Positions 19,400-58,578 of a stretch of 64,000 nt of DNA are shown one piece after another. The stretch is from an uncultured Candidatus Saccharibacteria bacterium (GTDB taxonomy: Bacteria > Patescibacteriota > Minisyncoccia > UBA6257 > 1-14-0-10-44-23): assembly GCA_964549935.1 (NCBI GenBank), contig CAZJVT010000003.1:159501-223500 (forward strand), given 5' to 3'. The translations under genes and the position numbers were made by a program. Position 1 is the stretch's first letter. Every line of letters begins with the position of its first letter. The notes below the pieces were generated by a model. The model saw nothing but the letters and a program-made list of their open reading frames with translations, did no database searches and had not been told where the DNA came from.

Positions 19400-19456
19400 T
19401 CCATGCGCTGTGGCGCGGGCGCGATCCCATAAGGGCGCGCAGGCGAGGGGAGGGAA
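19400..19456 (+). pseudogene. Remnant of HNH gene 3' end (direct repeat copy B); reading frame destroyed after HALWRGRDP
   Basis: Sequence identity to 14944-15017. Confidence 0.45.
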
Positions 19457-19508
19457 ACACGTCCGCTCGAGGATCGCCGCGGCCGCTGCCTTCTTCCAGC
19501 GCCTTCGG

Positions 19509-27433: not shown

Positions 27434-28068
27434 GGGTCCGTCATTTCTTCCTTGCCGTCGGCGGGCTCGCTGCCATGACCGGTGTCGCGGTGGCCCAGGC
27501 CCCATCGATCCCGATGGCATCGCCACAGGCCGTGACCTCGTTGCCCCAGTCCGGGCCGCAGCCCGGGCCGCTCTCCCTGACGGTGCCGGCGAGCTCTCCG
27601 GGCTCCCTCAACCCCCTGCAGCCTCGTCCCACTCCGCAGGCCATGACGGCCGCGCCGGCCGCGGGCGCCCAGCCCCCGGCAATCGGTGGCCAGGCGCCGC
27701 CTTTCGGACAGACGCTGCCTGCGCCGCCGGCGCTCAACACGCCGGCCCAGGAGGTGAGCTCGAGCGACCTGTCGACGGTCACGATCACCGCGATCATGGA
27801 CGGCGCGGCGGTCCTACGCACCGCCAACAACTCCTACCAGGTCGCGGACAAGGGCATGCTCAGCCACAACGGGCGGCTTTACGGCGTTCGCGTGAAGGAC
27901 GGCGTGGTCACCCTGTTCGACCGCAACCAGCGGCCGGTCTTCGAGGCGACGGTCGGTTCCGGCGTATCGCCCGAACAGCGGTTCTCGTGGACGCGTGCCC
28001 AGTCGTCGTCGGGCAGCGCAACCGGAGCCCCGCCGGCCCCCGCGCCGGCCCCGCTCAAGACGCCCTGA
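27430..28068 (+). CDS. Secreted pilus-assembly accessory protein (Pro/Ala-rich; pilotin or PilP-like?)
   Basis: Signal peptide MRVRHFFLAVGGLAAMTGVAVAQA; ATGA overlap with secretin stop. Confidence 0.6.
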   Translation: MRVRHFFLAVGGLAAMTGVAVAQAPSIPMASPQAVTSLPQSGPQPGPLSLTVPASSPGSLNPLQPRPTPQAMTAAPAAGAQPPAIGGQAPPFGQTLPAPPALNTPAQEVSSSDLSTVTITAIMDGAAVLRTANNSYQVADKGMLSHNGRLYGVRVKDGVVTLFDRNQRPVFEATVGSGVSPEQRFSWTRAQSSSGSATGAPPAPAPAPLKTP

Positions 28069-28070
28069 CC

Positions 28071-29960
28071 ATGCCGGACGACATCCAGCCGACCGAAGGC
28101 CACCAGGCAACCTCCGAACGGCTTGCGCCCGGCCAGCTCGTGGTCTCCGTGACCATGGGGGACGGGACACGGGTCCAGCGGACCGTCATCGGCGGCGAGG
28201 ACCGGACAGTCCATGCCAGGCCGGCGGAACCGGCCAAGGTCAAGCCATCGCAGCTCGCCGTGGCGACGAAGCAGCAGCGGGTCCTTCATGCCGCCGGCGT
28301 CGACAAGGCGATCACCGAGATCCTGATCTCGATGGGCTTCCTGCCGCCGTCCCAGGCGGAGGCCGGATCGGGCCTGTCGAGGCGGAAGCAGGATCCGGGC
28401 GACCTGGTGAGCCTCCGGCTCCAGCAGAACCTTGGCATGAAGATCATGGGCGTCGAACGCGACGTCATATCGGTCGCCCTGACGAAGGCGGCGGACGACT
28501 TCAAGCGGCAGTTGCTCCTCCTCGAAGCCAGGCGTGCCGGCATCGAGGCGAGCCGGATCGAGATCCTTCCGATCGACCGCATGTCGGCGATCGCGCTGCT
28601 CGGCCAGACCCGCGTCGTGCATCGGGACGTGATCGAGAAGCGGATCCAGCGCCTCACCCGCGATCCGGGAGAGGGCTCCCTGCTGCAGCTCATCATCCAG
28701 GAGATCTTCTCCTACGCGGTGCAGATCGATGCCTCGGACATTTCGGTCAAGGTCGAGCCGAGGCATCTGGAGCAGTCGAACGTCGCCTTTCGCGTCGACG
28801 GCACGATGCAGTACGAGTTCTTCCTTCACCCCGACGTCGCCAAGCCGCTCGCGACCAGGCTGAAGGCGATGGCGAACATCGACTTTTCCGACCGCTCGCG
28901 CCCTCACGACAACCGCATCACCCTGCAGGTGGCCGGCCGCGACATCGACGTCCGCGTCGGCGTCGTCCCCACCGATCCAGGGGAGCTCATCACGATGCGC
29001 CTCCTGGACCCCAGGAAGGTTCTCCATATCGGTGATCTGTTCGGATCGATGCCGGCAACCGTCGCCTATATCCGGAGCTTCAATTCCCAGCCGACGAAGT
29101 CGGGCGGCGTCCTGCTGCTTTCGGGCCCCACGGGCTCAGGCAAGACGACGACCCAGAACGCCATCCTCCTCGACGTCGATCGCACCAAGAAAAAGGTCGT
29201 CACGATCGAGAATCCGGTCGAGTACACGATCCCGATGGCGCATCAGATCCAGGTTCAGACCGACGACCAGTGGGCCGAGGCGATGCGCGCCGTTCTTCGC
29301 CACGATCCCGACGTGATCGCGCTCGGCGAGATGCGCGATCGCCGGACGGCCGAGGCATGCAACTCCATGGCCGAGTCCGGGCACAAGGTCACCGTTACCG
29401 TTCATGCCGACGACGGCCCGCAGACGATCAACCGCTTCGCGGACTTCTTCGACGAGAGCAATCGCAAGCATCAGCTGAGCACTCTCGGCTCGCACATCTT
29501 CGGCGTCGTGAACCAGCGGCTTCTCTCGGCGGTGTGCCCTCATTGCTCGAGCAGCGTCGAGGTAGGCGACGAGGGAGCGCACACCACCCGCGAGATCCAG
29601 ATCGCGACGGAGATCCTCAGGATCCCGTCCCGGATGCAGGTGCGCCGGCCGAACCTCGAGGGCTGCGGCCACTGCAACCATACCGGCTACTTCCGGCGGG
29701 TGCTCTCCGTCGAGCAGATCTTCATCCCGCGCGATCATGGCGTCCGGCGCCAGGTGGTCGAGCGCCTGACCGGCGACCTCGTCCATGAGATCGTGGACAT
29801 CGAAGGGGTCTATTTCAGGAGCCACTCGGACCGGATCGTGGAGCTCCTGCAGCAGGGCTACCTCGACCTTTCGATCGCCGCCGGCGTGGTGGAGGCCACG
29901 GGATACGGCTACCGCCGACGAGGGGAGGCGGCCATCGACGTCCGCCAGATTCTCGTATGA
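28071..29960 (+). CDS. GspE/PilB-family pilus assembly ATPase (BfpD/PilQ(R64)/TcpT-like)
   Basis: Walker A GPTGSGKTT. Tetracysteine CPHC ... CGHC zinc motif. Start ATG 28071 just after stop of upstream gene. Confidence 0.9.
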   Translation: MPDDIQPTEGHQATSERLAPGQLVVSVTMGDGTRVQRTVIGGEDRTVHARPAEPAKVKPSQLAVATKQQRVLHAAGVDKAITEILISMGFLPPSQAEAGSGLSRRKQDPGDLVSLRLQQNLGMKIMGVERDVISVALTKAADDFKRQLLLLEARRAGIEASRIEILPIDRMSAIALLGQTRVVHRDVIEKRIQRLTRDPGEGSLLQLIIQEIFSYAVQIDASDISVKVEPRHLEQSNVAFRVDGTMQYEFFLHPDVAKPLATRLKAMANIDFSDRSRPHDNRITLQVAGRDIDVRVGVVPTDPGELITMRLLDPRKVLHIGDLFGSMPATVAYIRSFNSQPTKSGGVLLLSGPTGSGKTTTQNAILLDVDRTKKKVVTIENPVEYTIPMAHQIQVQTDDQWAEAMRAVLRHDPDVIALGEMRDRRTAEACNSMAESGHKVTVTVHADDGPQTINRFADFFDESNRKHQLSTLGSHIFGVVNQRLLSAVCPHCSSSVEVGDEGAHTTREIQIATEILRIPSRMQVRRPNLEGCGHCNHTGYFRRVLSVEQIFIPRDHGVRRQVVERLTGDLVHEIVDIEGVYFRSHSDRIVELLQQGYLDLSIAAGVVEATGYGYRRRGEAAIDVRQILV

Positions 29961-31186
29961 GCAGGTTCTGGCGAACCTCCTTCATGACTGCCGACCGGCC
30001 GGGCATGCCTGCTCGGCGCCTGGAGAAGGAGTTCTTTCTCCCCGACCAGGGTTCGGTACGCCTCGCGGTCGAGCAGATCGGCGGCCGGGTGATCTCCATC
30101 CGGGAGCGGCGCCTTCGGTGGTGGGACGGCGAGATCTTCACCAAGAGCTATCGGCTTCGGTTCCTCCGGACCCTCGGCTTCTTCGTCACCTCGAATTCGC
30201 CCGGCGTCGCCCTGGTGCGAGTCATCGAGACCGAGGAGGACATGCGAAAGCGCGCTCACCTGAACTCGGCCATCGAAGTGATCAACCGAGGCGGGGACTT
30301 CACCCAGGCGGTCCGCTCCATCAAGCTGTTCGACCGCTCGGTGATCGCAATCCTCGAGGCCGGGGAAAGGGTAGGGCGCCTCAGGGAAGCCATCGCCGCC
30401 GCCACCAGCCATGTCGAGAAGCGCGGCAAGAGCCTGAAGATGGTCATGTCTGCGATGGCCTGGTTCTGGATCGACGTCATCTCGACTGTTGCGACCGTGT
30501 TCGAGGTTCATTTCCACGCTCTTCCCTGGATCCGGGAAAACGCCTTCGACGGCGTCAGCGCCGCGAAGAAGGCCGAGATCATGGCTGCCCTCGACCGCGC
30601 GCAGGCGATCAACCTCGGTTTCATGGGGGTGGTCGCGGCCGTCGGCGTCCTGGCGCTTGCGGTCCTGTGGTCGACCTTCCTCGGTCGCGGGCGCGACGAC
30701 AGCGGAAAGCGCAACGTGATGAGCCTGATCCCAGGTCTCAGCACGATGGTCGTTTCCGCCGGCATCGCCGAGACCTTCTCGATCGTCTCACGGATGGTGG
30801 CTGGCTCCGCGCCCTTCTCGGAAGCGGTACGTGCCGCGGAACAGGCGACGATCGTCGGCAGCGTCTCCGGGTTCTGGAAGCGCGTCGGCGAGATGATCGG
30901 GAACGGCTGGGGCATCGACAAGGCGATGGCCAGGCATCCGCTGAGCCATGCCGAACGGATGGAGATCTCCGGCCACCGCAACCTGAGCCAGCTCGTCGAC
31001 GTGATGTCCTCCATCGCCGAGACCCGGGAGCAGACGGCCGAGCGTTACCTCAAGATGATCTCGAGCCTGTCCATCCTGGGGGTCCTGCTGTTCGGAGCCG
31101 GGGTCACCCTCAACGTCCTCTACGTCGTGTGGGTCCAGAACGAAGGCTTCACCAGCTCGATGCAGTCGATCATGGGCGGCGGCTGA
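29957..31186 (+). CDS. GspF/PilC-family inner-membrane platform protein (BfpE/PilR(R64)/TcpE-like)
   Basis: ~409 aa polytopic. Duplicated T2SS-F-like halves. ATGA overlap with ATPase. Confidence 0.85.
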   Translation: MSRFWRTSFMTADRPGMPARRLEKEFFLPDQGSVRLAVEQIGGRVISIRERRLRWWDGEIFTKSYRLRFLRTLGFFVTSNSPGVALVRVIETEEDMRKRAHLNSAIEVINRGGDFTQAVRSIKLFDRSVIAILEAGERVGRLREAIAAATSHVEKRGKSLKMVMSAMAWFWIDVISTVATVFEVHFHALPWIRENAFDGVSAAKKAEIMAALDRAQAINLGFMGVVAAVGVLALAVLWSTFLGRGRDDSGKRNVMSLIPGLSTMVVSAGIAETFSIVSRMVAGSAPFSEAVRAAEQATIVGSVSGFWKRVGEMIGNGWGIDKAMARHPLSHAERMEISGHRNLSQLVDVMSSIAETREQTAERYLKMISSLSILGVLLFGAGVTLNVLYVVWVQNEGFTSSMQSIMGGG

Positions 31187-31277
31187 AGCGGGGTAATCCC
31201 GATTTCCTCGGCATATGGGCCTGCCGGCGCCGAATGTTTCTTTGTATAAGCAGGTGCAAACAGTATAATAGACCGCC

Positions 31278-32132
31278 ATGGCCAGACCGCCCGACAGCTT
31301 CACCCCGGATTCGATCGTCATCGGACACGTACCCCTGGGTGCGGGCTCGGAAGCCCGGGATGCCGCCTACTGGGAGGCGCAGAGGGCCCTGGACGAGGAA
31401 GCGCTCCATCTCCTGCTGGTCGAAGGCCAGGACGAGGTCCGTTTCATGGCGGCGCCCAGTAGGGATTTCGTCGGCGCGCCCTTCGGGGCCACCTCGATCC
31501 TGGCCGCGGCCTTTCCCGGTCATCCAGGGCATGTCGGCGACGGCGCCTATCTCGCGGACGCGCCGACCGGCGTCGCCTGTATCGTCTGCAAGCATGGCGA
31601 GCTTCTTCTTTTCGTGGGCGATCGGAATGCCGTGGAGGCGTTCGCCAGGCATAACGAAGCCGACATCGTAGAGCCGTCGAGCGGTGCCGGACCGGCCTGG
31701 GAAGGCTTCCGCATCGGGTCGCTCCGACGTCATGGCCGGATGGCGATGACCGCGCTTCTTGCCGCCGCCGCCGTCAGTATCGTCATGGCCGTGGTCTGGG
31801 TGGCATCGGCGCTGACCCTTTCCGGATCGGCCGAGGTCGAGGCGCAGATCAGGTCCACCGCGGATGCGGGCATGCGCGCCGCCGCCCAGGAGCTGACCAA
31901 GGCCGTACGCCAGCCCCTGGCCGACGACCTTTCATACTTCCAGCAGATCGCCGCGATCACCGCCGGGACGGGTGGCTGGATCAAGGAATTCAAGATCACG
32001 AACGGCCAGGCCACCTGGTCGGCCGAGTTCCCTATGTGGGTGACCGCCGATCAGCTCCAGGCTCTCGGCCGCAACCTGAAGACCCGGGCCGACGACGCCA
32101 AGGGTGTCGTGATCGTCGAGGGATCGCGCTGA
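31278..32132 (+). CDS. Bitopic inner-membrane pilus biogenesis protein (BfpC/PilM-like candidate)
   Basis: Central TM ALLAAAAVSIVMAVVWVASAL; operon context. Confidence 0.6.
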   Translation: MARPPDSFTPDSIVIGHVPLGAGSEARDAAYWEAQRALDEEALHLLLVEGQDEVRFMAAPSRDFVGAPFGATSILAAAFPGHPGHVGDGAYLADAPTGVACIVCKHGELLLFVGDRNAVEAFARHNEADIVEPSSGAGPAWEGFRIGSLRRHGRMAMTALLAAAAVSIVMAVVWVASALTLSGSAEVEAQIRSTADAGMRAAAQELTKAVRQPLADDLSYFQQIAAITAGTGGWIKEFKITNGQATWSAEFPMWVTADQLQALGRNLKTRADDAKGVVIVEGSR

Positions 32133-32254
32133 TGTCCATGAACCCGAGGACAGTTATCAATGCCGGCAGGGTCGCGGCCGCGATCAGTGTCGCGATGGCG
32201 ACGGTGTGGCTGATCTACCTACTGAAATTGCTGGTCAAGAGCGCCCCGCTATGA
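32132..32254 (+). CDS. 40-aa single-TM peptide (pilus operon small subunit)
   Basis: ATGA overlaps at both ends (32130-32134 and 32251-32254). Confidence 0.4.
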   Translation: MSMNPRTVINAGRVAAAISVAMATVWLIYLLKLLVKSAPL

Positions 32255-32742
32255 ATCCTCTCGTCCGCATCCGGTCCGCTCTCGTCCGCTTCCTGGACGG
32301 TCTCGACGAAACCCGCGGGACGGCCCTTGTCTCCCTCGCTTGGGTCGTCGCCCTGGTCTTTACCGTGGGCGCCGGCTGGCAGGTCCTCGAAGTACGCCGG
32401 ACCTCCGAGCAGATGAAGGTCCTCCAGGTCGGCGCTACCGTGAAGCTGGCTGTGGGCGAGGCTCCGGTCACGGCCGAGGAGATGGGCCGGGTCGCGGCGC
32501 AGGTGAAGCTCATGCATCCCTCGCTGAACGTCGCTTCGGACCCTGAGGGGATCCGCATCACGGCACAGGGGGAAGAGCGCTTCTTCGATTTCCGCTACGC
32601 GATCGCCACCGCGATGAACGCCCTTCCGGACGCCCGATGGAAAGCCCAGACGCTCATGCTCTGCGGCGGAGCGGGATGCCAGGGCTCCAACTACCTCGGC
32701 GTCCTCAAGGCGACCCGCGTGAAGGTGAACGTCACGGGGTAG
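32251..32742 (+). CDS. Bitopic membrane pilus-assembly protein (PilN/PilO/BfpL-like candidate)
   Basis: N-terminal TM ALVSLAWVVALVFTVGAGW; C-terminal Cys pair. Confidence 0.55.
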   Translation: MNPLVRIRSALVRFLDGLDETRGTALVSLAWVVALVFTVGAGWQVLEVRRTSEQMKVLQVGATVKLAVGEAPVTAEEMGRVAAQVKLMHPSLNVASDPEGIRITAQGEERFFDFRYAIATAMNALPDARWKAQTLMLCGGAGCQGSNYLGVLKATRVKVNVTG

Positions 32743-32784
32743 ACGGCACCTCCGACGGCAGTGGCGGGCCCTGCATCGCCGCGC

Positions 32785-32811
32785 TTGAACAGAGGCCGAC
32801 AGGCTTATACT
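32785..32811 (+). promoter_or_regulatory. Possible internal promoter (TTGAAC ... TATACT) ahead of the major pilin gene
   Basis: Read directly; spacer about 15 nt (suboptimal). Confidence 0.3.
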
Positions 32812-32835
32812 ATGGTCAACCAGGAGAATGAACCC

Positions 32836-33570
32836 ATGCGTGCCCAGATGACGAACCTCCTTTCCGGTCTCGGCGTTGCCGGTTTGCCGATCAGGTCCGT
32901 GTCGGCCCGGACTTCCGCGAATGCCGGCTTCGGCACCTCCGCGGTCCTCCTCGTCGTCGTTCTCATCGCAGCGATCGGCGCCTTCTTCGCCTACTCGACC
33001 CGCGGCAGCAACGTGACCTCCGCCCAGTCGACGAATTCCATCGGGGCGACCACGATCATCGACCAGGGCACCCAGATGCGCTCCGGCTTCGAGCGCATGC
33101 TGGCGAACGGCTCGGCCGCGAGCCAGGTGACCTTCGACACGGCGGCGACTACCGGCCTGTTCAATCCGACGACCGGTGGCACGGGCGACCAGCCGCCGCC
33201 GCAGCGGAACCTGACGGACGAGGCGATCGCGGGCTCGGCCCCCTTCGCGGCGGCCGTCACGACCTACAGCTACAAGACGGGCGTGACCGGTCCCGCGAAC
33301 GTCGGCACCGCTGCCGGCCTCAAGTACGGCGTGTTCCTCCCGGGCGTGAAGCTGGCCGTCTGCCAGGCGATCAACAACCAGCTCTACTCGGATTCGCTGA
33401 GCGCGACGCCGGTGGCGAGCGGTCTTGCCGTCACGGCCTTCGTCGGCGGCGCGGCTGTCGACCTGACCGCCGGCGCCATGGCCGCCGGCCTCAGCCAGCG
33501 CTCCGAGGGCTGCATCGGCACCACCAGCGCCAACCAGTACGTCTACTACAAGGTCATGTACGTGCAGTAA
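32836..33570 (+). CDS. Type IVb major prepilin (long leader, about 30 aa, ending ...SANAG|FGTSAVLLVVVLIAAIGAFFAY; C-terminal Cys pair)
   Basis: SD AGGAGA 9 nt upstream of ATG 32836. Hydrophobic alpha1-N after G|F. C...C disulfide region LAVCQ ... EGCIG. Confidence 0.7.
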   Translation: MRAQMTNLLSGLGVAGLPIRSVSARTSANAGFGTSAVLLVVVLIAAIGAFFAYSTRGSNVTSAQSTNSIGATTIIDQGTQMRSGFERMLANGSAASQVTFDTAATTGLFNPTTGGTGDQPPPQRNLTDEAIAGSAPFAAAVTTYSYKTGVTGPANVGTAAGLKYGVFLPGVKLAVCQAINNQLYSDSLSATPVASGLAVTAFVGGAAVDLTAGAMAAGLSQRSEGCIGTTSANQYVYYKVMYVQ

Positions 33571-33572
33571 CG

Positions 33573-34076
33573 ATGGGCTGGATCAGCGCACTCATCGCCG
33601 CGATCGTCCTGAGCGGCGTCGTCGCCGCCTCCCAGGCGCGGAGCGGATCGACGGCCGCGAAGGTCCAGCGCATCGACACGGCTGTCGCCTCGCTCAATGC
33701 GCAGGCGAACATGACCCGTCAGGTGCTGACGCAATGCGCGCTCGACTATCCGTCGGGCGACAACGGCACCGGCTTCACCATCGCCTACCCGGCAGCGACG
33801 GCCGCAACGGCGCTCACCGGGCTGCAGTGCCCGGGGGCGCCTGCCGGCTTCAAGGACTTCTGGGGTGGCCGCAACGGCGTTTTCGAACCCGTGGCGCCAT
33901 CGGGCTTCGGCGCCTGGACCTACCTGAACAATGCCACCGGCGTCAGCCTGACGATCACGGCGGCGAGCGCCGATGCGGCTCTCGTCGCCGCCATGGACCG
34001 GGTGGCAGCGGCTTATTCGGCCACCGAGGCCACCCGCAGCGGGCTTTCACTCACCGTCTGGATCATCCGGCTATGA
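33573..34076 (+). CDS. Minor pilin-like protein
   Basis: N-terminal hydrophobic helix MGWISALIAAIVLSGVVAAS; Cys pair. Confidence 0.55.
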   Translation: MGWISALIAAIVLSGVVAASQARSGSTAAKVQRIDTAVASLNAQANMTRQVLTQCALDYPSGDNGTGFTIAYPAATAATALTGLQCPGAPAGFKDFWGGRNGVFEPVAPSGFGAWTYLNNATGVSLTITAASADAALVAAMDRVAAAYSATEATRSGLSLTVWIIRL

Positions 34077-34732
34077 GCAACGCGCGCAATCGCCAGGGCG
34101 GTTTCGCCCAGACCATCGCCATCGTCGCGATCGGCCTCGCGGCCGCCATCGGTCTTTCGGCTTCCTTCGCCTTCCGTCAGGCCAACGCCACCTCGCGCGG
34201 CCTCCAGAAGGAGCAGGTGAGGGGAGACCTCAGCCAGCTCGCCAAGCAGCTGGCGCTGATGTCGACGCCGGATTCTTCCGGGATCCTGACCGCCCCGGCC
34301 TTCGTCACGCCGACCTCGGGGACGCCGCCGACGAACGGCGGCAAGCTCCCGTCTTCCATCGCGACACGCACGACGACGCCCCAGGGAACCCCGTTCGGCT
34401 ACTGCCCGGTCAAGCTCGGCGATACCGCGGGCGCGGGGAACCGGATCGCCACCGGCGGAACGCCGGGTAGCTCGACGATCCTGTTCGCCCTGATCTCTCC
34501 CGGCGCCGACAGGGTCTTCCAGACCACATGCCCCGATGCGATCGCCGGCACCAGCTTAGGCGACGACGCGATCTTTCGAGCCCGCCACAGCGACGTGCAG
34601 CGCGTGGTCTACGAGGCGGCTGCCGACCGGCTGGGCCATAGCAGCTTCCAGGCCGCGGAGATGCGTTGCGCCGTCGACGGCAAGCTTTTCCAGCCATTCG
34701 CCACGGGCAAGGACGCCCGCGGCTGCAAATAG
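34073..34732 (+). CDS. Minor pilin-like protein (class III signal-like QGG|FAQTIAIVAIGLAAAIG)
   Basis: ATGA overlap with upstream pilin. G|FA motif shared with 32836 and 35271 genes. Confidence 0.6.
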   Translation: MSNARNRQGGFAQTIAIVAIGLAAAIGLSASFAFRQANATSRGLQKEQVRGDLSQLAKQLALMSTPDSSGILTAPAFVTPTSGTPPTNGGKLPSSIATRTTTPQGTPFGYCPVKLGDTAGAGNRIATGGTPGSSTILFALISPGADRVFQTTCPDAIAGTSLGDDAIFRARHSDVQRVVYEAAADRLGHSSFQAAEMRCAVDGKLFQPFATGKDARGCK

Positions 34733-34741
34733 GACCAGCAG

Positions 34742-35212
34742 ATGACCAATCGCATTCCCGTGAAGATCTCGCTCTCGCCCGAATACGACCGCTCCTGGGG
34801 CCCGCCGGGCTACGCCAAGCCCGGCGACGCTGGGTTCGATCTCCGCGCCCTCATCAAGGCGCCGATCGAGATCCGCGCCGAAGAGCAGCACCTGATCCCG
34901 ACCGGCCTCCGCATCGCCGTGCCGCCGGGGTTCGAGCTGCAGGTCCGGCCGCGGTCGGGCCTGGCGCTCAAGCACGGCCTGACGATCGTCAACTCGCCGG
35001 GCACGGTCGATTCCGGCTATCGCGGCGAGGTCGTCATCATCGCCTATCGCCTCAAGGGGCTCGGCGACGACAGCAAGCTCGTCGTCAAGCCAGGCGACCG
35101 CATCGCCCAGGGCGTCATCGCGCCGGTCTACCAGGCCGACTTCGATGTTGTCGACGAGCTCGACGAGACCGAGCGCGGGAGCAGCGGCTTCGGCTCCAGC
35201 GGCAGCAACTGA
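34742..35212 (+). CDS. dut: dUTP diphosphatase (trimeric dUTPase) embedded in the pilus operon
   Basis: All five dUTPase motifs present: GDAGFDL, RPRSGLALKHG, GTVDSGYRGEV, GDRIAQG, RGSSGFGSSG. 10-nt gap to upstream pilin gene, 59 nt to downstream pilin gene. Confidence 0.9.
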   Translation: MTNRIPVKISLSPEYDRSWGPPGYAKPGDAGFDLRALIKAPIEIRAEEQHLIPTGLRIAVPPGFELQVRPRSGLALKHGLTIVNSPGTVDSGYRGEVVIIAYRLKGLGDDSKLVVKPGDRIAQGVIAPVYQADFDVVDELDETERGSSGFGSSGSN

Positions 35213-35270
35213 TCCTTCGACCGGAAGCGCGGCCGGCATGGGTGCCGCGATCATGCAGAAGAGGTGTGCG

Positions 35271-37541
35271 ATGTTCAGCTTCATCAAGACCGGCTTCGGG
35301 ACCCGAGAAAGCCAGCGGGGTTTCGCCGCCGCGACCGTCCTGAGCGGGATCCTCCTCGCCGGCCTCGCCGCCGGCGTCATGTATTCGGGCTGGTCGTCGA
35401 CTCAGCGCACCACCGCCTCCCTGACCAAGTCGTCCAACAACGACTCGCTGATGTCGCAGGTCCGGGCGGCGATCATCTCGGAGCACGCCGATCTCGACGG
35501 CGACGGCACGCCGGAAGGTCCGGCGCCGCTGACCGGGGTCACGCCCATCCCGACTGGCGGCGGGCAGATCCCGGCGAGCTCGAAGGCGCCGAAGACCGAT
35601 GGCTGGGGCACCGCCTTCGGCTATTGCGCCTTCAAGAACGGCTCCGGCGCCGATCGCGCCGGATACATCCGGAACACGGCGACCTCGACCGGCGGCGAGA
35701 TCAGCTTCGCGATCATCTCCGCCGGCTCCGACAAGACGATCCAGACCACCTGCGCGCAGGCACTGACCCAGTCGGCGCAGGGCGACGACAAGCTCGCCAC
35801 ATACTCGCTCGCCGACGTGACGCTGTCTGGCGTCACCTTCAGCGGGGCCGGCTCGGGCACCAACTCCACCGACGTCCAGAACAAGCAGGTCGCCTGCGTC
35901 GCGAGCGGGAAGCTCTACGCAGGCGTCGGCGCGACCGGAGCGGATGCGAACGGCTGCATCGCGCCGGCCGGTTCCGGCGGCGGCATCGTCACCGACGCGC
36001 AGGGCCGCCTGGCGGTCTCCTGCACGCATATCTCGCAGCTCGTGACCAATCCGAGCGACGGCGAGTACATGCTCCTCGGCGTTCCGACCGACGGGTCGCT
36101 GCCGGCGATGTATCCGACGGAATGCGACTTCACCACCTGGGGTGGGAAGTGGACGATGGTCGCGAAGTACGACCCGACAGCGGCCTGCCCGGCCACGATG
36201 AAGGCTGGCGGCGTCTGCTCGGCGCCGTCGGACGGCATCGACCTGATGAACATGAGCCGGATCTCGAACGACATGACGTCGGTCCGGGCTCTCACGAACG
36301 CGCTTCGCTACCTGAAGCCGTTCAGCGAGATCATGATGAAGGACGCGAACGGGTCCTTCATCGTCTGGAACTGCGGCGGGAACCAGAGCCGGTCATGGTA
36401 CGAGCGCTACCTCGTCTATGGCGGAGCCGAGACCTGCTCGATCAGCAGCTCGACCTTCCATAATGGCGGGACCAAGTCGCTCAACACGCTGACGCCGAGG
36501 TTCCAGGTCAACCTGACCGGATTCCGGGAGCTGACTTCGACGCCGTTTTCCTGGTGGTCCTGTCCCGCCTACTCGAATTGCGACGGCGACTGGACCATCC
36601 GGACGACGGTGCAGCGCGACTATCCGGGATATTCGGGCAACTACTATTTCAATGCCGGCTATGTCTACATGCCGGCGCGCGGGACCAACGGCGTGGCCGA
36701 CTGGTACCTCAAGGTCTGCGATCTCTCGACGCTTGAGACGCGTGACGTCGTCTCGCCGATCGGCGGCACCTACGCGAATGGGTGCCAGGCGAGCTGGATC
36801 AGCACCTTCCGGGGACCGTGGAGCTTCACGTCCGGCCCGCGTCACGACTGGAGCTACGCCGTCGACTATCCCGGCGACGAAAACAACATCCTTCCCAGCC
36901 TGGCGCATCTCGCCACGCAGCCGCGGCCGAACCAGAACTGGGCACCGGACTATCAGCTCACGATTGTCTCGCCCGCGGCCATCAACGGCACCGGCTGGCA
37001 TCAGCGACTGAACTTTTCGGCACCGAATCCGTCCGACAGCAACAACGTCTGCAATTTCGGCTATGGCCAGTACGACGCCTACTGGGGCAACGGCGCCGCT
37101 GCCGCGGGAGTCTTCTTCCGACCTACCAGCTATCTCGTCTACGGCAACGGCACGCTCTCGAGCGTCCAGATGGGCTACGCCGGTCCGTGGCAGGATGCCT
37201 ATGCCTACTGGGAGTTCACCGGCGGCACCGGACAGAACTTCGCCATCCCCGGCTATGTCGACCTCAAGTATTCGATGATCAACGGCTCGGGCAACGGGCG
37301 GTCGATCTGTGCCGGTACCCGCAAGCTCTACTGGGGGTACCTGCATCAGGATGGCTACTGCGTCTTCCAGCAATACAAGGACTTCCATGCTTCCGGATAC
37401 TGGATGTGGCAGGACGGATGCCAGGCCCAGCAGGCTTTCAACAAGACCGAGACCGCGTTCAACGCGCTGCCGGGAAGCGTGCCCCTGGGGTTCGTGAAGT
37501 CCTTCATGCCGACGGACATCCGGAAGATCTATATCCGGTGA
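35271..37541 (+). CDS. Large pilin-like protein (756 aa): N-terminal prepilin-type segment RG|FAAATVLSGILLAGLAAGVMY, Cys-rich middle, Trp/Tyr-rich C-terminal domain. Putative tip adhesin / initiator minor pilin (PilV/TcpB/CofB analogue).
   Basis: SD AAGAGG 7 nt before ATG 35271. Multiple Cys pairs. Aromatic-rich C-terminus suggests carbohydrate binding. Confidence 0.65.
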   Translation: MFSFIKTGFGTRESQRGFAAATVLSGILLAGLAAGVMYSGWSSTQRTTASLTKSSNNDSLMSQVRAAIISEHADLDGDGTPEGPAPLTGVTPIPTGGGQIPASSKAPKTDGWGTAFGYCAFKNGSGADRAGYIRNTATSTGGEISFAIISAGSDKTIQTTCAQALTQSAQGDDKLATYSLADVTLSGVTFSGAGSGTNSTDVQNKQVACVASGKLYAGVGATGADANGCIAPAGSGGGIVTDAQGRLAVSCTHISQLVTNPSDGEYMLLGVPTDGSLPAMYPTECDFTTWGGKWTMVAKYDPTAACPATMKAGGVCSAPSDGIDLMNMSRISNDMTSVRALTNALRYLKPFSEIMMKDANGSFIVWNCGGNQSRSWYERYLVYGGAETCSISSSTFHNGGTKSLNTLTPRFQVNLTGFRELTSTPFSWWSCPAYSNCDGDWTIRTTVQRDYPGYSGNYYFNAGYVYMPARGTNGVADWYLKVCDLSTLETRDVVSPIGGTYANGCQASWISTFRGPWSFTSGPRHDWSYAVDYPGDENNILPSLAHLATQPRPNQNWAPDYQLTIVSPAAINGTGWHQRLNFSAPNPSDSNNVCNFGYGQYDAYWGNGAAAAGVFFRPTSYLVYGNGTLSSVQMGYAGPWQDAYAYWEFTGGTGQNFAIPGYVDLKYSMINGSGNGRSICAGTRKLYWGYLHQDGYCVFQQYKDFHASGYWMWQDGCQAQQAFNKTETAFNALPGSVPLGFVKSFMPTDIRKIYIR

Positions 37542-37677
37542 CAGACCGGCCGGCCGGTTCCACCGCTCTTGAACCGGCCGGCTGACGTCGAAAAGGCTTG
37601 ACACCGTCGTTTCTTCCTTGCCCCGTGTAAAACTGTCCGCTATATGCTTTAGGCGACAGAATCATACGGAGCAGACG

Positions 37678-38451
37678 ATGACCACGCATCCCAGCACCCC
37701 GGAGGCTCAAGCCCAGGTGGCTCGGACCTGCGTCGTTCGCTTCTTCCAGACTTTGAAGCCCGAAAACGGACCGCTGAACGAGCTGCCGCCGGTCCTGGCT
37801 AAGCTTCGGACCGCCGCGTTGGCCGCTGGGCTCCTGGGCGCTCTCGGCGCCCATCCGGGTCCCGCGCATGCCGGCGATCCCGCCTCGCAGCTCCGGCTGA
37901 GGGTTGTCGCCGCTGCCGCGATGCAGGGTCTCGTCGCCGACCGGTCCGGACTTCTGCTCGATCTCGAGCTCGCCGAGGCGGCCGGGCGAGCTCAGGCGGC
38001 GCTCCTGGACAAGGGCCCGGGCTCCAGCTCCGGCTGGGCGTCCCGAGACCGCGCGATCGAGGCCAAGACCGGCTACGTGGCGTCGGCGCGGATGCCTGTC
38101 GTGACCTGGCGGAAGGAGTTTCGCGAGTCAGCCGTGCCGGACGCGCGACCGGGCGAGGAATGCGCGGTTCTGGTCACTGCATTCACCGGCTTCCCTGGCG
38201 GCAAGCCCGCCGACATCGCGACGCTGTTCTGCCGGGGGCGCGAAGGCTGGCGCCTGGTGGACATGGGCGACTGGGCGAGGGTCTACGAGTCCCTCCGGGA
38301 TGCGGGGGCCGAGATGCGGAATGCCGCTGCTTCGCCGGCGCCGGTCCATACCGGCGAAAGCGGGGAGCCCTGCCTGGAGACCTCCGAGGAGATCCAGGTC
38401 GGCGGCCGCACGGAGACCGCGTTCGGCATCGCCTGCCGCATGCCGTCGTAA
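37678..38451 (+). CDS. Secreted hypothetical protein, paralog of 39652..40360
   Basis: N-terminal VVRFFQTLKP motif then hydrophobic AALAAGLLGALGA; C-terminal block GEECAVLVTAFTGFPGG ... GWRLVDMG. Confidence 0.6.
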   Translation: MTTHPSTPEAQAQVARTCVVRFFQTLKPENGPLNELPPVLAKLRTAALAAGLLGALGAHPGPAHAGDPASQLRLRVVAAAAMQGLVADRSGLLLDLELAEAAGRAQAALLDKGPGSSSGWASRDRAIEAKTGYVASARMPVVTWRKEFRESAVPDARPGEECAVLVTAFTGFPGGKPADIATLFCRGREGWRLVDMGDWARVYESLRDAGAEMRNAAASPAPVHTGESGEPCLETSEEIQVGGRTETAFGIACRMPS

Positions 38452-38477
38452 CAGCGAAGTTCCTGGAAAATGCCTGA

Positions 38478-38508
38478 GGGCGGCGGATCGATCCGCCGCC
38501 CTTCTTCA
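38478..38508 (+). terminator. Rho-independent terminator: perfect 24-bp palindrome GGGCGGCGGATCGATCCGCCGCCC followed by TTCTTC
   Basis: Read directly, 27 nt after stop of 37678..38451. Confidence 0.6.
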
Positions 38509-38602
38509 TGCCGGCGCGCAGCCCCATGCAAGGGGCTTTGGCGCTTTCTTGGAACGCATGATAAACTGTATTCGCACTTATATTCACCAGGAGCCGTTCG
38601 TC

Positions 38603-38935
38603 ATGACCCTGCACAACGCCAACGCCCTGCCGATGAAAGGCACCTATCGCTCGGTGCCCCTGGCTCTCGGCTGCGCGCTCGCGATCAGCGCCGAGGCCGG
38701 CGCGGCCGTCCTGGGCTACGAGGACGAGCGGTTCAAGGATACGACCCGGGTCCTGCTCTATACCGCGAGCAACAAGATGGTGGCGCAGCTGAAATCGGGC
38801 CGCGCGATCGATCTGGGCGAGGTCGATGTCCAGACCGCGGAGGACATCAAGGGCCTTCGCACCCTCGTCATCTCCCGTCCAGGCGAGAACGCCGGCGAGC
38901 TCGACAGCCAGTTCGTCAGCATCCGACGCATCTAG
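38603..38935 (+). CDS. Small secreted protein (110 aa)
   Basis: SD AGGAG 8 nt before ATG; signal peptide LALGCALAISAEAGAA. Confidence 0.55.
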   Translation: MTLHNANALPMKGTYRSVPLALGCALAISAEAGAAVLGYEDERFKDTTRVLLYTASNKMVAQLKSGRAIDLGEVDVQTAEDIKGLRTLVISRPGENAGELDSQFVSIRRI

Positions 38936-38966
38936 GCCGTTTCCCCAGGTCCAAAGGAGACCTCCG

Positions 38967-39641
38967 ATGAGCACCGCCAACGCCTTCGTCGCCAGCTTCT
39001 TCGCCGGACTCCGTGCCGAGCCCCTCAAGGCTGCCGACAGGGAGTCCGAGAGCCGCACGCCGATCCTCGATCGCCTGCGCGGCGTGGTCGCCGTGGCCAT
39101 CGTCGCCGCGGTCCTGGCACCGACCGGTGCCCAGGCCCAGTCCCTCGGCATCAATACCCCGACGATCATGGGCATCCTCGGCGCCGCCGGCGGCGCATGG
39201 GGCGGCAGCCAGATCGGCCGCGGCGCCGGCAAGACCGCGGCGATCGCCGTCGGCACGCTGCTCGGTAGCGGCCTCGGATGGGAGGCTGGGAAGTACCTGG
39301 ACTCCCAGGGCGAGGCGGCGAAGGTCGCCCTTTCCCAGGCTCAGCTCGGTCAGCGCGTCGCCTGGCAGGACCAGGGCGCGTCCGGCTACTTCATGCCGAT
39401 CCGCGAAGGCGTCTCGATGCAGACCGGGCTGCAGTGCCGCGAGTACCAGACCGAGATCGTCGTGGGCGGGCAGCGCCAGGCCGGCTACGGAACCGCCTGC
39501 CTGCAGCCGGACGGCCACTGGCAGATCGTTTCCTCGGGCCAGGCTCGCCAGGGCGCCCAGTACAATCCGGCGCCGGCCTACGGACAGCCGATGCCTACCT
39601 ATGCCGGCCAGACCGGAATGAGCTACGGCTCGCGCTACTAG
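38967..39641 (+). CDS. Glycine-zipper membrane/surface protein (17-kDa-antigen / SlyB-like Gly-zipper) with Gln/Tyr-rich C-terminus
   Basis: GILGAAGGAWGGSQIGRGAGKTAAIAVGTLLGSGLGW; SD AAAGGAGA; N-terminal FVASFFAGLR motif. Confidence 0.6.
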   Translation: MSTANAFVASFFAGLRAEPLKAADRESESRTPILDRLRGVVAVAIVAAVLAPTGAQAQSLGINTPTIMGILGAAGGAWGGSQIGRGAGKTAAIAVGTLLGSGLGWEAGKYLDSQGEAAKVALSQAQLGQRVAWQDQGASGYFMPIREGVSMQTGLQCREYQTEIVVGGQRQAGYGTACLQPDGHWQIVSSGQARQGAQYNPAPAYGQPMPTYAGQTGMSYGSRY

Positions 39642-39651
39642 GTCCTCGAGA

Positions 39652-40360
39652 GATGACCGAAGCGGTACGCGATCGAACCTCCGCGAGCGACCGGGGAGCC
39701 GCAAGCGCCCTGGTCGCTTCCTTCTTCCGGCACCTGCGACCTGTTGACGATGCTCTCCCGCGGGTCCTGCGCCGGCTCCGCATCGCCGCTCTCGCGATCG
39801 GCCTGCTGTCGACCACGGCCTTCTCGACGTCATCCGTGGCGGATGCCGGGCCCGGCGACGGGCTCAGGCTCGCGACCGCGGCCGCCCTCCAGGCCGTCAC
39901 CGGCGAGCGGGACGGCATGACCTTCGACCTCGATGCCCTCGACGCAGCAAGCCGGGCGCATATGGCTCTCCTCGAAACGGTGTCGAGCGGCCGGACCGGT
40001 GCCGCAAGGGCCTGGACAGGCGACGACGGCCGGACCAGCGGCAAGACGCTGCTCGCGTCCGTGTCTCGTATCGGACAGGGCAAGAGCTTCGAGGACGGGA
40101 AGGACAGAAGCGGCGCGGAATGCGCGGCCTTGATATCGGCGGCCAGCTTCAGCGGCCGTGGCCCCATGGTCTCGGCGACACTCGTCTTTTGCAGGGCGTC
40201 GGGCGAAAGATGGGAGCTCGTGGATGCGGGCTCCAATGTCTCGACTCTTCAGGAGCTGCACAAGAAGCTCGCCGATGCTCTCGCGCGCCCGGACCTGCCG
40301 CGTGCGAGTGCCGAGGCGACCAGCCAGTCCGGCATGTCCGGCATCGGCAGCAGTCTCTGA
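39652..40360 (+). CDS. Secreted hypothetical protein, paralog of 37678..38451
   Basis: LVASFFRHLRP motif then LRIAALAIGLLS; C-terminal GAECAALISAASFSGRG ... RWELVDAG. Confidence 0.6.
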
Positions 40361-58550: not shown

Positions 58551-58578
58551 GGAGTGCTTCCTCTCTGCTGACCTGATG

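What the first reader, a model, noticed from the sequence alone, without database searches (positions are those of the whole stretch)
37678..40360. Paralogous secreted proteins with a shared unusual N-terminal motif immediately downstream of the pilus operon: candidate pilus-secreted substrates
The proteins 37678-38451 and 39652-40360 are clear paralogs. Their C-terminal blocks match (GEECAVLVTAFTGFPGGKPADIATLFCRGREGWRLVDMG versus GAECAALISAASFSGRGPMVSATLVFCRASGERWELVDAG).

Together with the Gly-zipper protein 38967-39641 they share an N-terminal pattern: a short polar stretch with a [VA]xxFFxxL[KR][PA] motif (VVRFFQTLKP, FVASFFAGLRAEP, LVASFFRHLRP), then a basic linker, then a hydrophobic signal-like segment. 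This is not a standard Sec or Tat signal.

The position mirrors TcpF in tcp and CofJ in cof operons, which are soluble proteins exported through type IVb pilus machines. The shared N-terminal motif could be a recognition element for that export or for minor-pilin binding.
Basis: partly seen in the sequence, partly recalled or inferred. Interest (0 to 1): 0.75.

Follow-up and report, generated by a model that had tools for sequence, protein, structure and literature searches.

The report
Long shared leader on pilus-linked envelope proteins
Three small exported envelope proteins encoded beside a pilus gene cluster on a mobile element carry the same unusually long, conserved extension in front of an otherwise ordinary secretion signal, so the motif most likely acts inside the cell during export rather than as a tag for release through the pilus.

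Summary
A (37678-38451) and D (39653-40360, not 39652) are paralogs: 35% identity, E=5e-22. A, D and the glycine-zipper protein C (38967-39641) share an N-terminal pattern, hVxxFFxxL[RK]P, a linker, then [VI]Lx[RK]LR. The fourth gene, B, lacks it.

The motif is translated and under purifying selection. It is the best-conserved segment between the A and D clades (49% versus 33% identity). It recurs in every relative found, which come from three diverged copies of the same syntenic cassette. C's share is statistically weak (E about 0.01).

In all nine sequences the motif lies upstream of a short, Ala-rich hydrophobic core and an AxA-type cleavage site. It therefore forms the n-region of a 57-65 residue Sec-type leader. 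It would stay cytoplasmic and be removed. TcpF and CofJ carry their export signal in the mature N-terminus.

C's homologs elsewhere are ordinary SlyB-like lipoproteins without the extension. The closest architectural analogue is the ESPR extension of type V secretion proteins, but there is no sequence match.

Pilus-dependent release of the mature proteins remains untested. The family is extremely rare: four clusters among 1.84 billion representatives.

The parts
26039..37541 (+). Upstream type IV filament (pilus) gene cluster. It encodes a secretin lipoprotein (26039-27433), a PilP/GspC-like 212-aa protein, a GspE/PilB-type ATPase (28071-29960) and a GspF-type platform protein (29957-31186). 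It also encodes 284-aa, 40-aa and 163-aa membrane proteins. Pilin-like proteins with G|F class-III-like sites lie at 32836-33570, 34073-34732 and 35238-37541. A dUTPase gene (34742-35212) is embedded in the cluster.
   Evidence: Precomputed Pfam hits to Secretin, T2SSE and T2SSF. NCBIfam hits to MshL/GspD/PilN, GspE/PilB and GspF, all below curated cut-offs. Translations read.
37547..37584 (+). 14-bp GC-rich hairpin between the PilV-like gene and gene A.
   Evidence: RNA fold -31.6 kcal/mol, z=-4.3, 0 of 200 shuffles fold as well. The simple terminator scan did not call it, because it has no T-run.
37598..37646 (+). Promoter-like boxes upstream of A (TTGACA at 37598-37603; TTGCCC-N17-TATATG at 37618-37646). 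They are conserved in the orthologous loci.
   Evidence: By eye, the same boxes appear in L004 and the GCTATATGC core in L009. The consensus scan did not call them. Function is inferred.
37678..37872 (+). Leader of A, 65 codons. It comprises a variable tip, the motif VVRFFQTLKP (37732-37761), a linker, PPVLAKLR, the h-region TAALAAGLLGALGA and the c-region HPGPAHA|GD.
   Evidence: Translation. Invariant positions. Third-position-biased substitutions against the ortholog: codons 1-15 show 0/1/7 changes with 7 synonymous. Hydropathy is 1.45 over 19 residues, against 2.0-2.6 for true membrane anchors in the cluster.
37873..38451 (+). Predicted mature A. It has two helices, a five-stranded antiparallel sheet and a helix, with an invariant Cys pair (C162/C185). 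It also has an extra C-terminal Cys hairpin (GEPCLETSEEIQVGGRTETAFGIACRMP) resembling the 17-kDa-antigen motif of C.
   Evidence: AF2 model with pLDDT 80-90 in the core. BLASTP of the A tail against C, E=1e-5. hhalign probability 83%.
38476..38503 (+). 12-bp perfect GC hairpin followed by UUCUUCAU, a terminator-like element after A. A different hairpin sequence sits at the same place in L004.
   Evidence: RNA fold -27.7 kcal/mol, z=-3.0. L004 has a 9-bp stem followed by CUCUUCGUUU.
38543..38575 (+). Conserved promoter-like box upstream of B (TTGGCGCT ... GCATGATAAACTG), shared by three elements.
   Evidence: Intergenic sequences of the window, L004 and L009 compared. Function is inferred.
38603..38935 (+). 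Gene B, 110 aa. It is a small exported protein with an ordinary short signal peptide and lacks the shared motif.
   Evidence: Translation. Ortholog in L004. No similarity to A, C or D. No family hit.
38967..39137 (+). Leader of C, 57 codons. It comprises the motif FVASFFAGLRAEP (38985-39023), an acidic linker, PILDRLR, the h-region GVVAVAIVAAVLA and the c-region PTGAQA|QS. There is no lipobox cysteine.
   Evidence: Translation. The ortholog keeps the motif. There is no in-frame alternative start codon before the h-region. HMM and BLAST similarity to the A/D leader is E about 0.01.
39138..39641 (+). Predicted mature C. It has a glycine-zipper (SlyB-like) segment, a 17-kDa-antigen domain with a Cys pair, and a Q/P/Y/G-rich tail.
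   Evidence: PF16998 E=1.2e-5 and PF05433 E=0.011. 40 homologs carry these domains. The profile hits SlyB 7ojf at E=5e-5.
39653..39847 (+). Leader of D, 65 codons. It comprises a variable tip, the motif LVASFFRHLRP (39710-39742), a linker, PRVLRRLR, the h-region IAALAIGLLSTTAF and the c-region STSSVADA|GP.
   Evidence: Translation. Alignment. There is no in-frame alternative start codon before the h-region.
39848..40360 (+). Predicted mature D, a paralog of mature A without the C-terminal hairpin.

Best explanation
A, C and D are Sec-exported periplasmic or outer-membrane-associated envelope proteins of a mobile element. They are encoded as accessory genes next to its type IV filament cluster.

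Each is made with an unusually long tripartite leader of 57-65 residues:
1. A conserved, moderately amphipathic helix carrying hVxxFFxxL[RK]P.
2. A variable linker.
3. A conserved basic box, [VI]Lx[RK]LR.

The basic box abuts a normal short Ala-rich h-region and an AxA-type signal-peptidase-I site.

The shared motif is therefore an N-terminal extension of a cleavable signal peptide. It is analogous in architecture to the ESPR extension of type V secretion proteins and to the long leaders of conjugative propilins. It would act on the cytoplasmic face of the inner membrane before cleavage.

Its likely role is to set the targeting route or slow release from the translocon. Alternatively it may bind a cytoplasmic or membrane-face partner, so that the three proteins are exported together or at the right place.

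Shown here: paralogy, translation and purifying selection of the leader, its position relative to the h-region and the cleavage-type site, its absence from C's homologs elsewhere, and conserved synteny.

Inferred: actual cleavage, the cytoplasmic site of action, and the kinetic or targeting role.
For: - **The leader is translated and constrained.** Substitutions against orthologs are biased to third codon positions. C and D have no alternative in-frame start before the h-region, and A, B and C have Shine-Dalgarno sequences.
- **It is unusually well conserved.** Residues 15-44 are the most conserved block between the A and D clades, at 49% identity against 33% for the mature part. That is unusual for a signal peptide.
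- **A signal-peptide-like core follows the motif in all nine sequences.** The hydrophobic core is 12-14 residues. Hydropathy over 19 residues is 1.3-1.6 for most A/D-family members (one reaches 1.90) and 1.70-1.97 for C and its ortholog. This overlaps the signal peptides of the secretin (1.99), the 212-aa protein (1.74) and B (1.76), and lies at or below the pilin and anchor helices of the same cluster (2.0-2.6). Pro/Gly and small residues at -3/-1 follow: AHA|G, AQA|Q, ADA|G, ATA|G, ALA|E, SFA|G.
- **Topology and compartment fit export.** Basic residues directly precede the core, which points to an N-in orientation. Invariant Cys pairs in the mature parts fit an oxidising compartment.
- **The module is portable.** C's 40 homologs elsewhere are 155-180 aa lipoproteins with ordinary lipoboxes and no extension. 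The module has replaced a normal signal in C.
- **Other signal types do not match.** No Tat, ESPR or other family model hits the leaders.
- **A precedent exists.** ESPR shows that a conserved N-terminal extension on a Sec signal can modulate export (PMC8151025).
Against: - No signal-peptide predictor was available. Cleavage is inferred from the -3/-1 rule and hydropathy only.
- In one ortholog (P0002) the best AxA site is followed by Pro, so another nearby site would have to be used.
- C's membership of the leader family rests on weak statistics (E about 0.01).
- No partner or export phenotype is known.
- The leader region is modelled at low confidence (pLDDT about 50).
- ESPR itself has no agreed mechanism, so the analogy explains little.
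Confidence: 0.55

Rival explanations
1. The hydrophobic segment is an uncleaved signal anchor. A, C and D would then be bitopic inner-membrane proteins. Their conserved cytoplasmic N-terminal peptide would dock onto a cytoplasmic part of the pilus machine, such as the ATPase or the cytoplasmic domain of the 284-aa GspL-like protein. This would resemble the way the N-terminal peptide of PilN binds PilM in type IVa pilus systems (that precedent is from general knowledge, not tested here).
For: The motif is cytoplasmic by topology and strongly conserved. Three different proteins share it, as expected for a docking peptide. The cassette is syntenic with the pilus cluster in three diverged elements. 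Hydropathy of C's core is high (3.19 over 12 residues).
Against: The hydrophobic cores are only 12-14 residues and Ala-rich. Pro/Gly and AxA-type sites follow them in every sequence. The cluster already encodes GspL-like, PilO/GspM-like and PilP-like components. C's relatives are outer-membrane lipoproteins, which is hard to reconcile with inner-membrane anchoring.
Confidence: 0.2
2. A, C and/or D are exoproteins released through the pilus machine like TcpF and CofJ, and the FF motif is the recognition element for the tip minor pilin.
For: The genes lie directly downstream of the large PilV-like minor pilin gene, and the linkage is conserved. The known export signals depend on an aromatic residue, TcpF Tyr5 and CofJ Phe10, and the motif has two Phe. 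The ATPase scores best against GspE, so the machine could have a secretion role.
Against: The motif is upstream of the Sec-type core and cleavage site, so it would be cytoplasmic and removed. The TcpF and CofJ signals are in the mature N-terminus. Mature A and D start a confidently predicted helix within about 6 residues. There is no sequence or fold similarity to TcpF or CofJ. A is a separate transcription unit flanked by hairpins. C belongs to a family of cell-bound outer-membrane lipoproteins.
Confidence: 0.07
3. The mature proteins have a different envelope role for the mobile element. Examples are surface or entry exclusion, blocking of the pilus receptor, or outer-membrane stabilisation around the secretin. 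On this view the long leader has only a minor, generic effect on export. This rival concerns the function of the mature parts and is compatible with the best explanation for the leader.
For: C is SlyB-like; SlyB/YfgH-type glycine-zipper lipoproteins stabilise the outer membrane (bioRxiv 10.64898/2025.12.22.696046, abstract). The region carries an integrase, toxin-antitoxin genes and an LPD7 protein. A and B-C-D have their own promoter-like boxes.
Against: There is no homology to any known exclusion protein or defence family. The leader is more conserved than the mature domains, which argues against a merely generic role.
Confidence: 0.15

Closest known systems
ESPR, the extended signal peptide region (Pfam PF13018) of autotransporters, TpsA proteins and trimeric autotransporters
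   Same: Total signal peptide is over 50 residues. The C-terminal part is a canonical Sec signal. A conserved N-terminal extension of about 25 residues cannot itself act as a signal. It is shared by non-orthologous cargo proteins and acts before or during inner-membrane translocation (PMC8151025; PMC2805444).
   Different: There is no sequence match (no PF13018 hit at E<=0.1). The cargo proteins are small soluble or glycine-zipper proteins without a beta-barrel translocator. The extension is longer (36-47 residues) and bipartite. It is known only from one small family of mobile elements.
TcpF (Vibrio cholerae) and CofJ (ETEC), exoproteins of type IVb pili
   Same: Small Sec-dependent proteins with disulfide bonds, encoded next to the pilus genes and the large minor pilin. 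An aromatic-containing N-terminal peptide is conserved.
   Different: The TcpF and CofJ export signal is a disordered segment of about 24 residues in the mature protein, after the signal peptide (PMC10120004). Here the motif precedes the signal-peptide core. There is no sequence or structural similarity. The genes here are separate transcription units.
Long leader peptides of conjugative propilins (F TraA, 51-residue leader)
   Same: A leader of about 50 residues on a mobile-element-encoded envelope protein, with a basic region, a hydrophobic core and an AxA site. TraA of F contains SFF followed by LRLAR (sequence verified at 100% identity).
   Different: The leader HMM gives negative scores against three TraA variants (E>40). 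The SFF of F TraA is not conserved in Klebsiella or Serratia TraA. The resemblance is architectural, not homologous. The cargo here is not a T4SS pilin.
SlyB / 17-kDa surface antigen glycine-zipper lipoproteins (PF05433 + PF16998), for protein C only
   Same: C has the glycine-zipper segment and the C-terminal Cys-hairpin domain. It shares up to 52% identity with family members over the roughly 37-69% of C that aligns. The family profile hits SlyB.
   Different: C has lost the lipobox cysteine. It has gained the 57-residue leader and a Q/P/Y-rich tail.

Membership tests
TcpF/CofJ-type pilus exoproteins | Encoded within or next to the type IVb pilus operon, near the large minor pilin | tested here: met
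   The cassette follows the PilV-like gene (or the dUTPase gene) in three diverged elements. However, A is flanked by hairpins and has its own promoter-like boxes.
TcpF/CofJ-type pilus exoproteins | Export signal is a disordered, aromatic-containing segment of about 24 residues at the N-terminus of the mature protein, downstream of the Sec signal peptide | tested here: not met
   The conserved motif lies upstream of the h-region and the AxA site. Mature A and D enter a helix with pLDDT 77-90 after about 6 residues. The definition comes from PMC10120004.
TcpF/CofJ-type pilus exoproteins | Pilus-dependent release into the medium; binding to the trimeric tip minor pilin | not testable with these tools
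   Needs fractionation in wild type against ATPase, secretin and pilin mutants, and binding assays.
ESPR extended signal peptide (PF13018) | Signal peptide over 50 residues, with a canonical Sec part preceded by a conserved N-terminal extension | tested here: met
   The leaders are 65, 57 and 65 residues. The extension is conserved across nine sequences.
ESPR extended signal peptide (PF13018) | Sequence match to the ESPR profile | tested here: not met
   No Pfam family at E<=0.1 for A or D. Only PF16998 and PF05433 hit C.
ESPR extended signal peptide (PF13018) | Cargo is a type V secretion protein | tested here: not met
   No autotransporter or TPS domain is present. The mature parts are 170-190 residues.
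Tat (twin-arginine) signal peptide | S/T-R-R-x-F-L-K motif with an invariant Arg pair at the n/h boundary | tested here: not met
   The boundary box is AKLR, ARLR or SRLR (A clade), DRLR or DRIR (C), RQLR (P0011), KRLR (P0003) and RRLR (D, P0002). No conserved RR is present. No TAT_signal model hit.
Type IV prepilin / pseudopilin | Class III signal: basic leader ending in Gly, cleaved before a hydrophobic helix of about 20 residues | tested here: not met
   There is no Gly-Phe/Met junction before the core, and the core is only 12-14 residues. The cluster's own pilin-like proteins all have G|F sites.
Type IV prepilin / pseudopilin | Pilin fold: a long helix packed on an antiparallel sheet, with a disulfide-bounded C-terminal region | tested here: inconclusive
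Glycine zipper 2TM / 17-kDa surface antigen (SlyB-like) lipoproteins (protein C) | Glycine-zipper segment plus C-terminal CREY...GTAC..DG.W domain | tested here: met
   PF16998 E=1.2e-5 (25.5 bits against a cut-off of 26.6) and PF05433 E=0.011. Invariant columns are shared with 23 homologs. SlyB 7ojf hits at E=5e-5.
Glycine zipper 2TM / 17-kDa surface antigen (SlyB-like) lipoproteins (protein C) | Lipoprotein signal peptide with a lipobox cysteine | tested here: not met
   The homologs have LAGC, LGAC, LTGC, LVAC and similar. C has ...VLAPTGAQA|QS with no Cys.
F-type propilin leader (TraA) | Sequence similarity of the leader | tested here: not met
   The leader HMM against TraA of F, Klebsiella and Serratia scores -0.6 to -3.2 bits.

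The most novel reading that the evidence does not exclude
The shared leader may be a dedicated, previously undescribed sorting or coupling signal. A cytoplasmic-face peptide would tie the export of three unrelated envelope proteins to the element's type IV filament machine. It could do so by docking on the ATPase, the platform protein or the GspL-like protein, so that the proteins are inserted at the pilus base. Alternatively, after cleavage it could be released into the cytoplasm as a peptide of about 40 residues that reports or regulates pilus and transfer gene expression. That second route would be loosely comparable to the signal-peptide-derived pheromones of enterococcal plasmids (this comparison is from general knowledge, not tested here).
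Probability: 0.15. Interest if true: 0.7.

Novelty: new variant of a known kind. Interest (0 to 1): 0.4.

Why it matters
Conserved N-terminal extensions on Sec signal peptides are rare. The only well-studied one, ESPR, has no agreed mechanism. Here the extension is the best-conserved part of the proteins and sits on three different cargoes. In one of them it has replaced an ordinary lipoprotein signal. That makes a compact natural test case for what such extensions do, whether in targeting route, export timing or partner docking.

It would also show how a mobile element co-ordinates accessory envelope proteins with its pilus.

The practical weight is limited. The family has been seen in only a handful of metagenomic assemblies and one NCBI record, and the host is unknown.

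Tried and rejected
1. **Internal start codons.** I considered that the motif might be untranslated upstream sequence. This is rejected. C and D have no in-frame ATG, GTG or TTG before the h-region. The leader shows third-position-biased substitutions.
2. **A shared DNA or RNA element instead of a peptide.** Rejected. The paralogs use different synonymous codons for the conserved residues: Leu is ttg, ctg or ctc, Ser is agc or tcc, and Arg/Lys is aag, cga or cgt (sequence). No Rfam family was found.
3. **Tat signal.** Rejected, because there is no conserved Arg pair.
4. **Prepilin-type signal.** Rejected, because there is no Gly junction.
5. **Homology to the F TraA leader.** This was recalled from memory. 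The TraA sequence was verified and tested with the leader HMM. Rejected.
6. **Fold search with the full-length A model.** It returned only helical noise.
7. **Searches for relatives.** Plasmid megablast and tblastn found nothing. GTDB genomes gave nothing, and the ATPase query found only one distant hit. JGI metagenomes gave nothing with the D-family profile or with a leader-only alignment. IMG/VR gave nothing.
8. **PHROGs and PADLOC.** No hits.
9. **The S24 peptidase gene at 21480-21941 as a possible dedicated leader peptidase.** It is UmuD/LexA-like, with GDSM and K motifs, and is not a signal peptidase.
10. **The A/D core Cys block as a 17-kDa-antigen domain.** The pattern looks similar by eye. 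However, hhalign supports only A's C-terminal tail.


Full report
**1. What is at the locus**

The + strand between 37678 and 40360 carries four genes:
- A, 37678-38451, 257 aa
- B, 38603-38935, 110 aa
- C, 38967-39641, 224 aa
- D, 39653-40360, 235 aa

The finding's start for D (39652) is one base early (sequence). Independent gene calls on the public contigs that carry identical proteins give the same four products.

A, B and C have clear Shine-Dalgarno sequences. D starts 11 nt after C's stop codon. GC3 in these frames is 0.82-0.85, as in the neighbouring genes.

Large antisense ORFs listed mechanically (for example 38183-39256 on the minus strand) are high-GC artefacts.

**2. Surroundings**

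Upstream lies a type IV filament gene cluster:
- a secretin lipoprotein (26039-27433)
- a PilP/GspC-like 212-aa protein
- a GspE/PilB-type ATPase (28071-29960)
- a GspF-type platform protein
- 284-aa, 40-aa and 163-aa membrane proteins
- three pilin-like proteins with G|F junctions and no Glu5 (244, 219 and 767 aa)
- an embedded dUTPase gene

. Every curated family score is below its cut-off. The ATPase scores best against GspE. The machine is therefore a divergent type IV filament system; 'type IVb' is plausible but not proven. No prepilin peptidase gene is in the cluster.

Downstream, on the opposite strand, lie a topoisomerase and a RecD2-type helicase, then a ligase-like protein and RecJ. 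Further out are an integrase, two HipA-like kinases, a UmuD-like S24 peptidase, an LPD7 protein and others. This composition looks like a mobile element.

The nearest annotated parallel is a syntenic pilus cluster on the conjugative Methylibium petroleiphilum plasmid RPME01. Its ATPase is 32% identical, and a topoisomerase and an integrase lie nearby. That plasmid has no A-D cassette.

**3. Checking the observation**

A and D are paralogs. They share 35% identity over 198 residues, E=5e-22. The alignment covers the quoted C-terminal blocks and also the N-terminus.

Six family members share these invariant residues in the leader: A15, V19, F22, F23, P37, V39, L40, L43, R44, A47, A49 and L52.

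C carries FVASFFAGLRAEP ... PILDRLR, and its ortholog carries AVASFFASLRAEP ... PVLDRIR. C's similarity to A/D is weak in statistical terms:
- BLASTP against D gives E=0.009 over 42 residues.
- An HMM of the A/D n-region, built without C, ranks C and its ortholog as the best non-family hits among 733 sequences (E=0.011 and 0.027).

A composite pattern (FF..[LMIV][KR] ... [VIL]L.[KR][LI]R) matches only these three genes in all six frames of the window. B is unrelated and has a short ordinary signal.

C's share is suggestive rather than proven homology. The cassette has three motif-bearing proteins, not four.

**4. Is the extension translated and constrained?**

Yes.

Against the orthologous locus L004, codons 1-15 of A differ at 0/1/7 first/second/third positions, with seven synonymous changes. 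Codons 16-45 of A, C and D differ at 7/7/17, 7/5/15 and 9/9/18.

C and D have no in-frame ATG, GTG or TTG between the annotated ATG and the hydrophobic core.

The paralogs encode the conserved residues with different synonymous codons. The constraint is therefore on the peptide, not on DNA or RNA.

Between the A and D clades, residues 15-44 are 49% identical. The hydrophobic and cleavage region is 39% identical and the mature part 33%. A signal-peptide n-region that is better conserved than the mature protein is unusual.

**5. Topology**

In all nine available sequences the motif is followed by a basic box. Next comes a hydrophobic core of 12-14 mostly Ala/Leu/Gly/Val residues. Then comes a Pro/Gly- or Ser-rich stretch ending in small residues at -3/-1:
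- A: AHA|GD
- C: AQA|QS
- D: ADA|GP
- orthologs: ATA|G, ALA|E, AAA|E, SFA|G

.

Mean Kyte-Doolittle hydropathy over 19 residues is 1.3-1.6 for most A/D-family members (one, P0006, reaches 1.90) and 1.70-1.97 for C and its ortholog. The signal peptides of the secretin (1.99), the 212-aa protein (1.74) and B (1.76) fall in the same range. The pilin and anchor helices of the same cluster score 2.0-2.6.

The mature parts contain invariant Cys pairs, as expected for proteins that fold in an oxidising compartment.

The simplest reading is a cleavable Sec (SPase I) signal peptide with a 36-47 residue n-region. The total leader is 65, 57 and 65 residues for A, C and D. The motif helix is moderately amphipathic (hydrophobic moment 0.43-0.56 in A/D). 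It would sit on the cytoplasmic side.

I had no signal-peptide predictor, so cleavage is an inference.

**6. Distribution**

The family is extremely rare.

Word-indexed searches of 5.8 billion cluster representatives found three proteins each for A and D, counting the exact copy of the query itself.

An exhaustive profile search of 1.84 billion representatives found four clusters in all. One was new: P0011, whose leader is MQARDFVIGFFRALAPSVAEGYRQPRVIRQLRQSAYAAAIL.

The sequences come from three diverged versions of one cassette, at about 100%, 66-69% and 47-52% identity. A fragment (P0002) at 83% identity was also found.

All versions show the same order: PilV-like gene and dUTPase (order swapped in L006), then A, B, C and D, then the topoisomerase on the opposite strand.

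Nothing was found in plasmids, GTDB genomes, JGI metagenome contigs or IMG/VR. A leader-only scan of the metagenome contigs also found nothing.

C is different. Its mature part belongs to the widespread glycine-zipper / 17-kDa-antigen family (40 homologs; profile hit to SlyB at E=5e-5). Those homologs are 155-180 aa lipoproteins with ordinary lipoboxes and no extension. The leader is therefore a portable module that replaced a normal lipoprotein signal in C.

**7. Mature proteins**

AlphaFold models show two helices, a five-stranded antiparallel sheet and a helix. The model of full-length A has pLDDT 69.7, and the model of mature D has pLDDT 74.6 with the core at 80-95. The invariant Cys pair lies on adjacent strands.

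A has an extra C-terminal hairpin that matches C's CREY...GTAC motif (BLASTP E=1e-5; hhalign 83%).

Fold searches gave no significant hit. With full-length A the hits were only helical noise.

Profile comparison with the window's own pilin-like proteins found nothing. I treat the pilin-like resemblance as a lead only.

No Pfam, NCBIfam, PHROG or PADLOC family covers A, B or D.

**8. Transcription units**

A 14-bp GC hairpin (37547-37584, z=-4.3) follows the PilV-like gene. A 12-bp hairpin plus UUCUUCAU (38476-38503, z=-3.0) follows A. L004 has a hairpin of different sequence plus CUCUUCGUUU at the same position.

Promoter-like boxes upstream of A and of B are conserved across the three elements. 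The simple consensus scan called neither promoters nor terminators, so these are inferences.

They suggest that A is its own transcription unit and that B-C-D form an operon. The cassette would then not be the tail of the pilus operon.

**9. Comparison with known systems**

*TcpF and CofJ.* Their export signal is a disordered segment of about 24 residues in the mature protein. It contains a key aromatic residue, is followed by a disulfide, and binds the trimeric tip minor pilin in the periplasm (PMC10120004). Here the conserved aromatic motif is on the wrong side of the signal-peptide core, and the mature N-termini are short and helical. The positional analogy holds. The mechanistic one does not.

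*ESPR.* This is the closest architectural analogue: a signal peptide over 50 residues, a canonical C-terminal part, and a conserved N-terminal extension that modulates export (PMC8151025). There is no sequence match, and the cargo here is not a type V secretion protein.

*F TraA.* Its 51-residue leader looks similar by eye (SFF ... LRLAR). After I verified the sequence, the leader HMM scored it below zero. The SFF is not conserved in other TraA proteins. This is analogy only.

*Tat and prepilin signals.* Both fail their defining features.

**10. Verdict**

The most likely explanation (about 0.55) is a new, element-specific extended Sec signal peptide on three accessory envelope proteins. Its conserved n-region would act at the cytoplasmic face.

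An uncleaved anchor with a cytoplasmic docking peptide is the main rival (about 0.2).

Pilus-dependent release of the mature proteins is nevertheless untested.

This is a new variant of a known kind. It is interesting as a compact test case for signal-peptide extensions, but it has a very narrow distribution and no functional data.

Noticed in passing
window 34742-35212; L006 5003-5479: A dUTPase gene is embedded in the pilus gene cluster. In the window it precedes the 767-aa PilV-like gene. In the related element (L006, L004, L009) it follows that gene and directly precedes A.
   Followed up: partly
window 35238-37541: The 767-aa PilV-like protein has a class-III-like signal (SQRG|FAAATVL) without Glu5 and a weak match to the bacterial fibrinogen-like GGGWT domain (NF040941, E=5e-4). 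Its N-terminal domain resembles the 219-aa pilin-like protein (34073-34732) by eye. All three pilin-like proteins have G|F sites and lack Glu5.
   Followed up: no
window 26039-37541: No prepilin peptidase gene is present in the pilus cluster. The element may rely on a host peptidase, or the gene may lie outside the window.
   Followed up: no
window 17644-21289 (- strand): Two HipA-like kinase genes lie in tandem, each preceded by a small gene. Only the one upstream of 17644-18945 carries an HTH_31 hit; the other (115 aa) has no Pfam hit. Next to them are an AAA ATPase, an SRAP protein and a UmuD-like S24 peptidase.
   Followed up: no
window 37598-37646 and 38543-38575; L004 1195-1344 and 2140-2307; L009: Short intergenic boxes upstream of A and of B are conserved across elements whose proteins are only 47-69% identical. 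Upstream of A: TTGACA and TTGCC[CT]-N17-TATATG. Upstream of B: TTGGCGCT ... TGATA[AG][AG]CTG. They are candidate promoters or operators for a common regulator.
   Followed up: partly
window 39540-39641: C ends in a Q/P/Y/G-rich low-complexity tail (ARQGAQYNPAPAYGQPMPTYAGQTGMSYGSRY). Its lipoprotein homologs lack it, but the two orthologs keep it in variable form.
   Followed up: no
window 25116-25760 (- strand): A response-regulator gene (Response_reg receiver, no recognisable output domain) lies divergently upstream of the secretin gene. A 996-aa multi-PAS histidine kinase lies at 51911-54901.
   Followed up: no
L011 (NC_008826.1, 361252-370107): The conjugative Methylibium petroleiphilum plasmid RPME01 carries a syntenic pilus cluster (secretin, a 219-aa protein, ATPase, platform protein and four small genes). 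A topoisomerase III and an integrase lie nearby, but there are no A-D homologs.
   Followed up: partly
window 57222-58823 (- strand): A 533-aa pentapeptide-repeat protein lies next to a DnaQ-like exonuclease (58579-59496), a glycine-rich protein and an LPD7-domain protein (61583-62644).
   Followed up: no
window 32251-32742: The N-terminus of the 163-aa PilO/GspM-like protein (IRSALVRFLDGLDETRG, then a TM helix) looks faintly like the leader motif (SALVASFFRHL). The leader HMM does not score it.
   Followed up: partly
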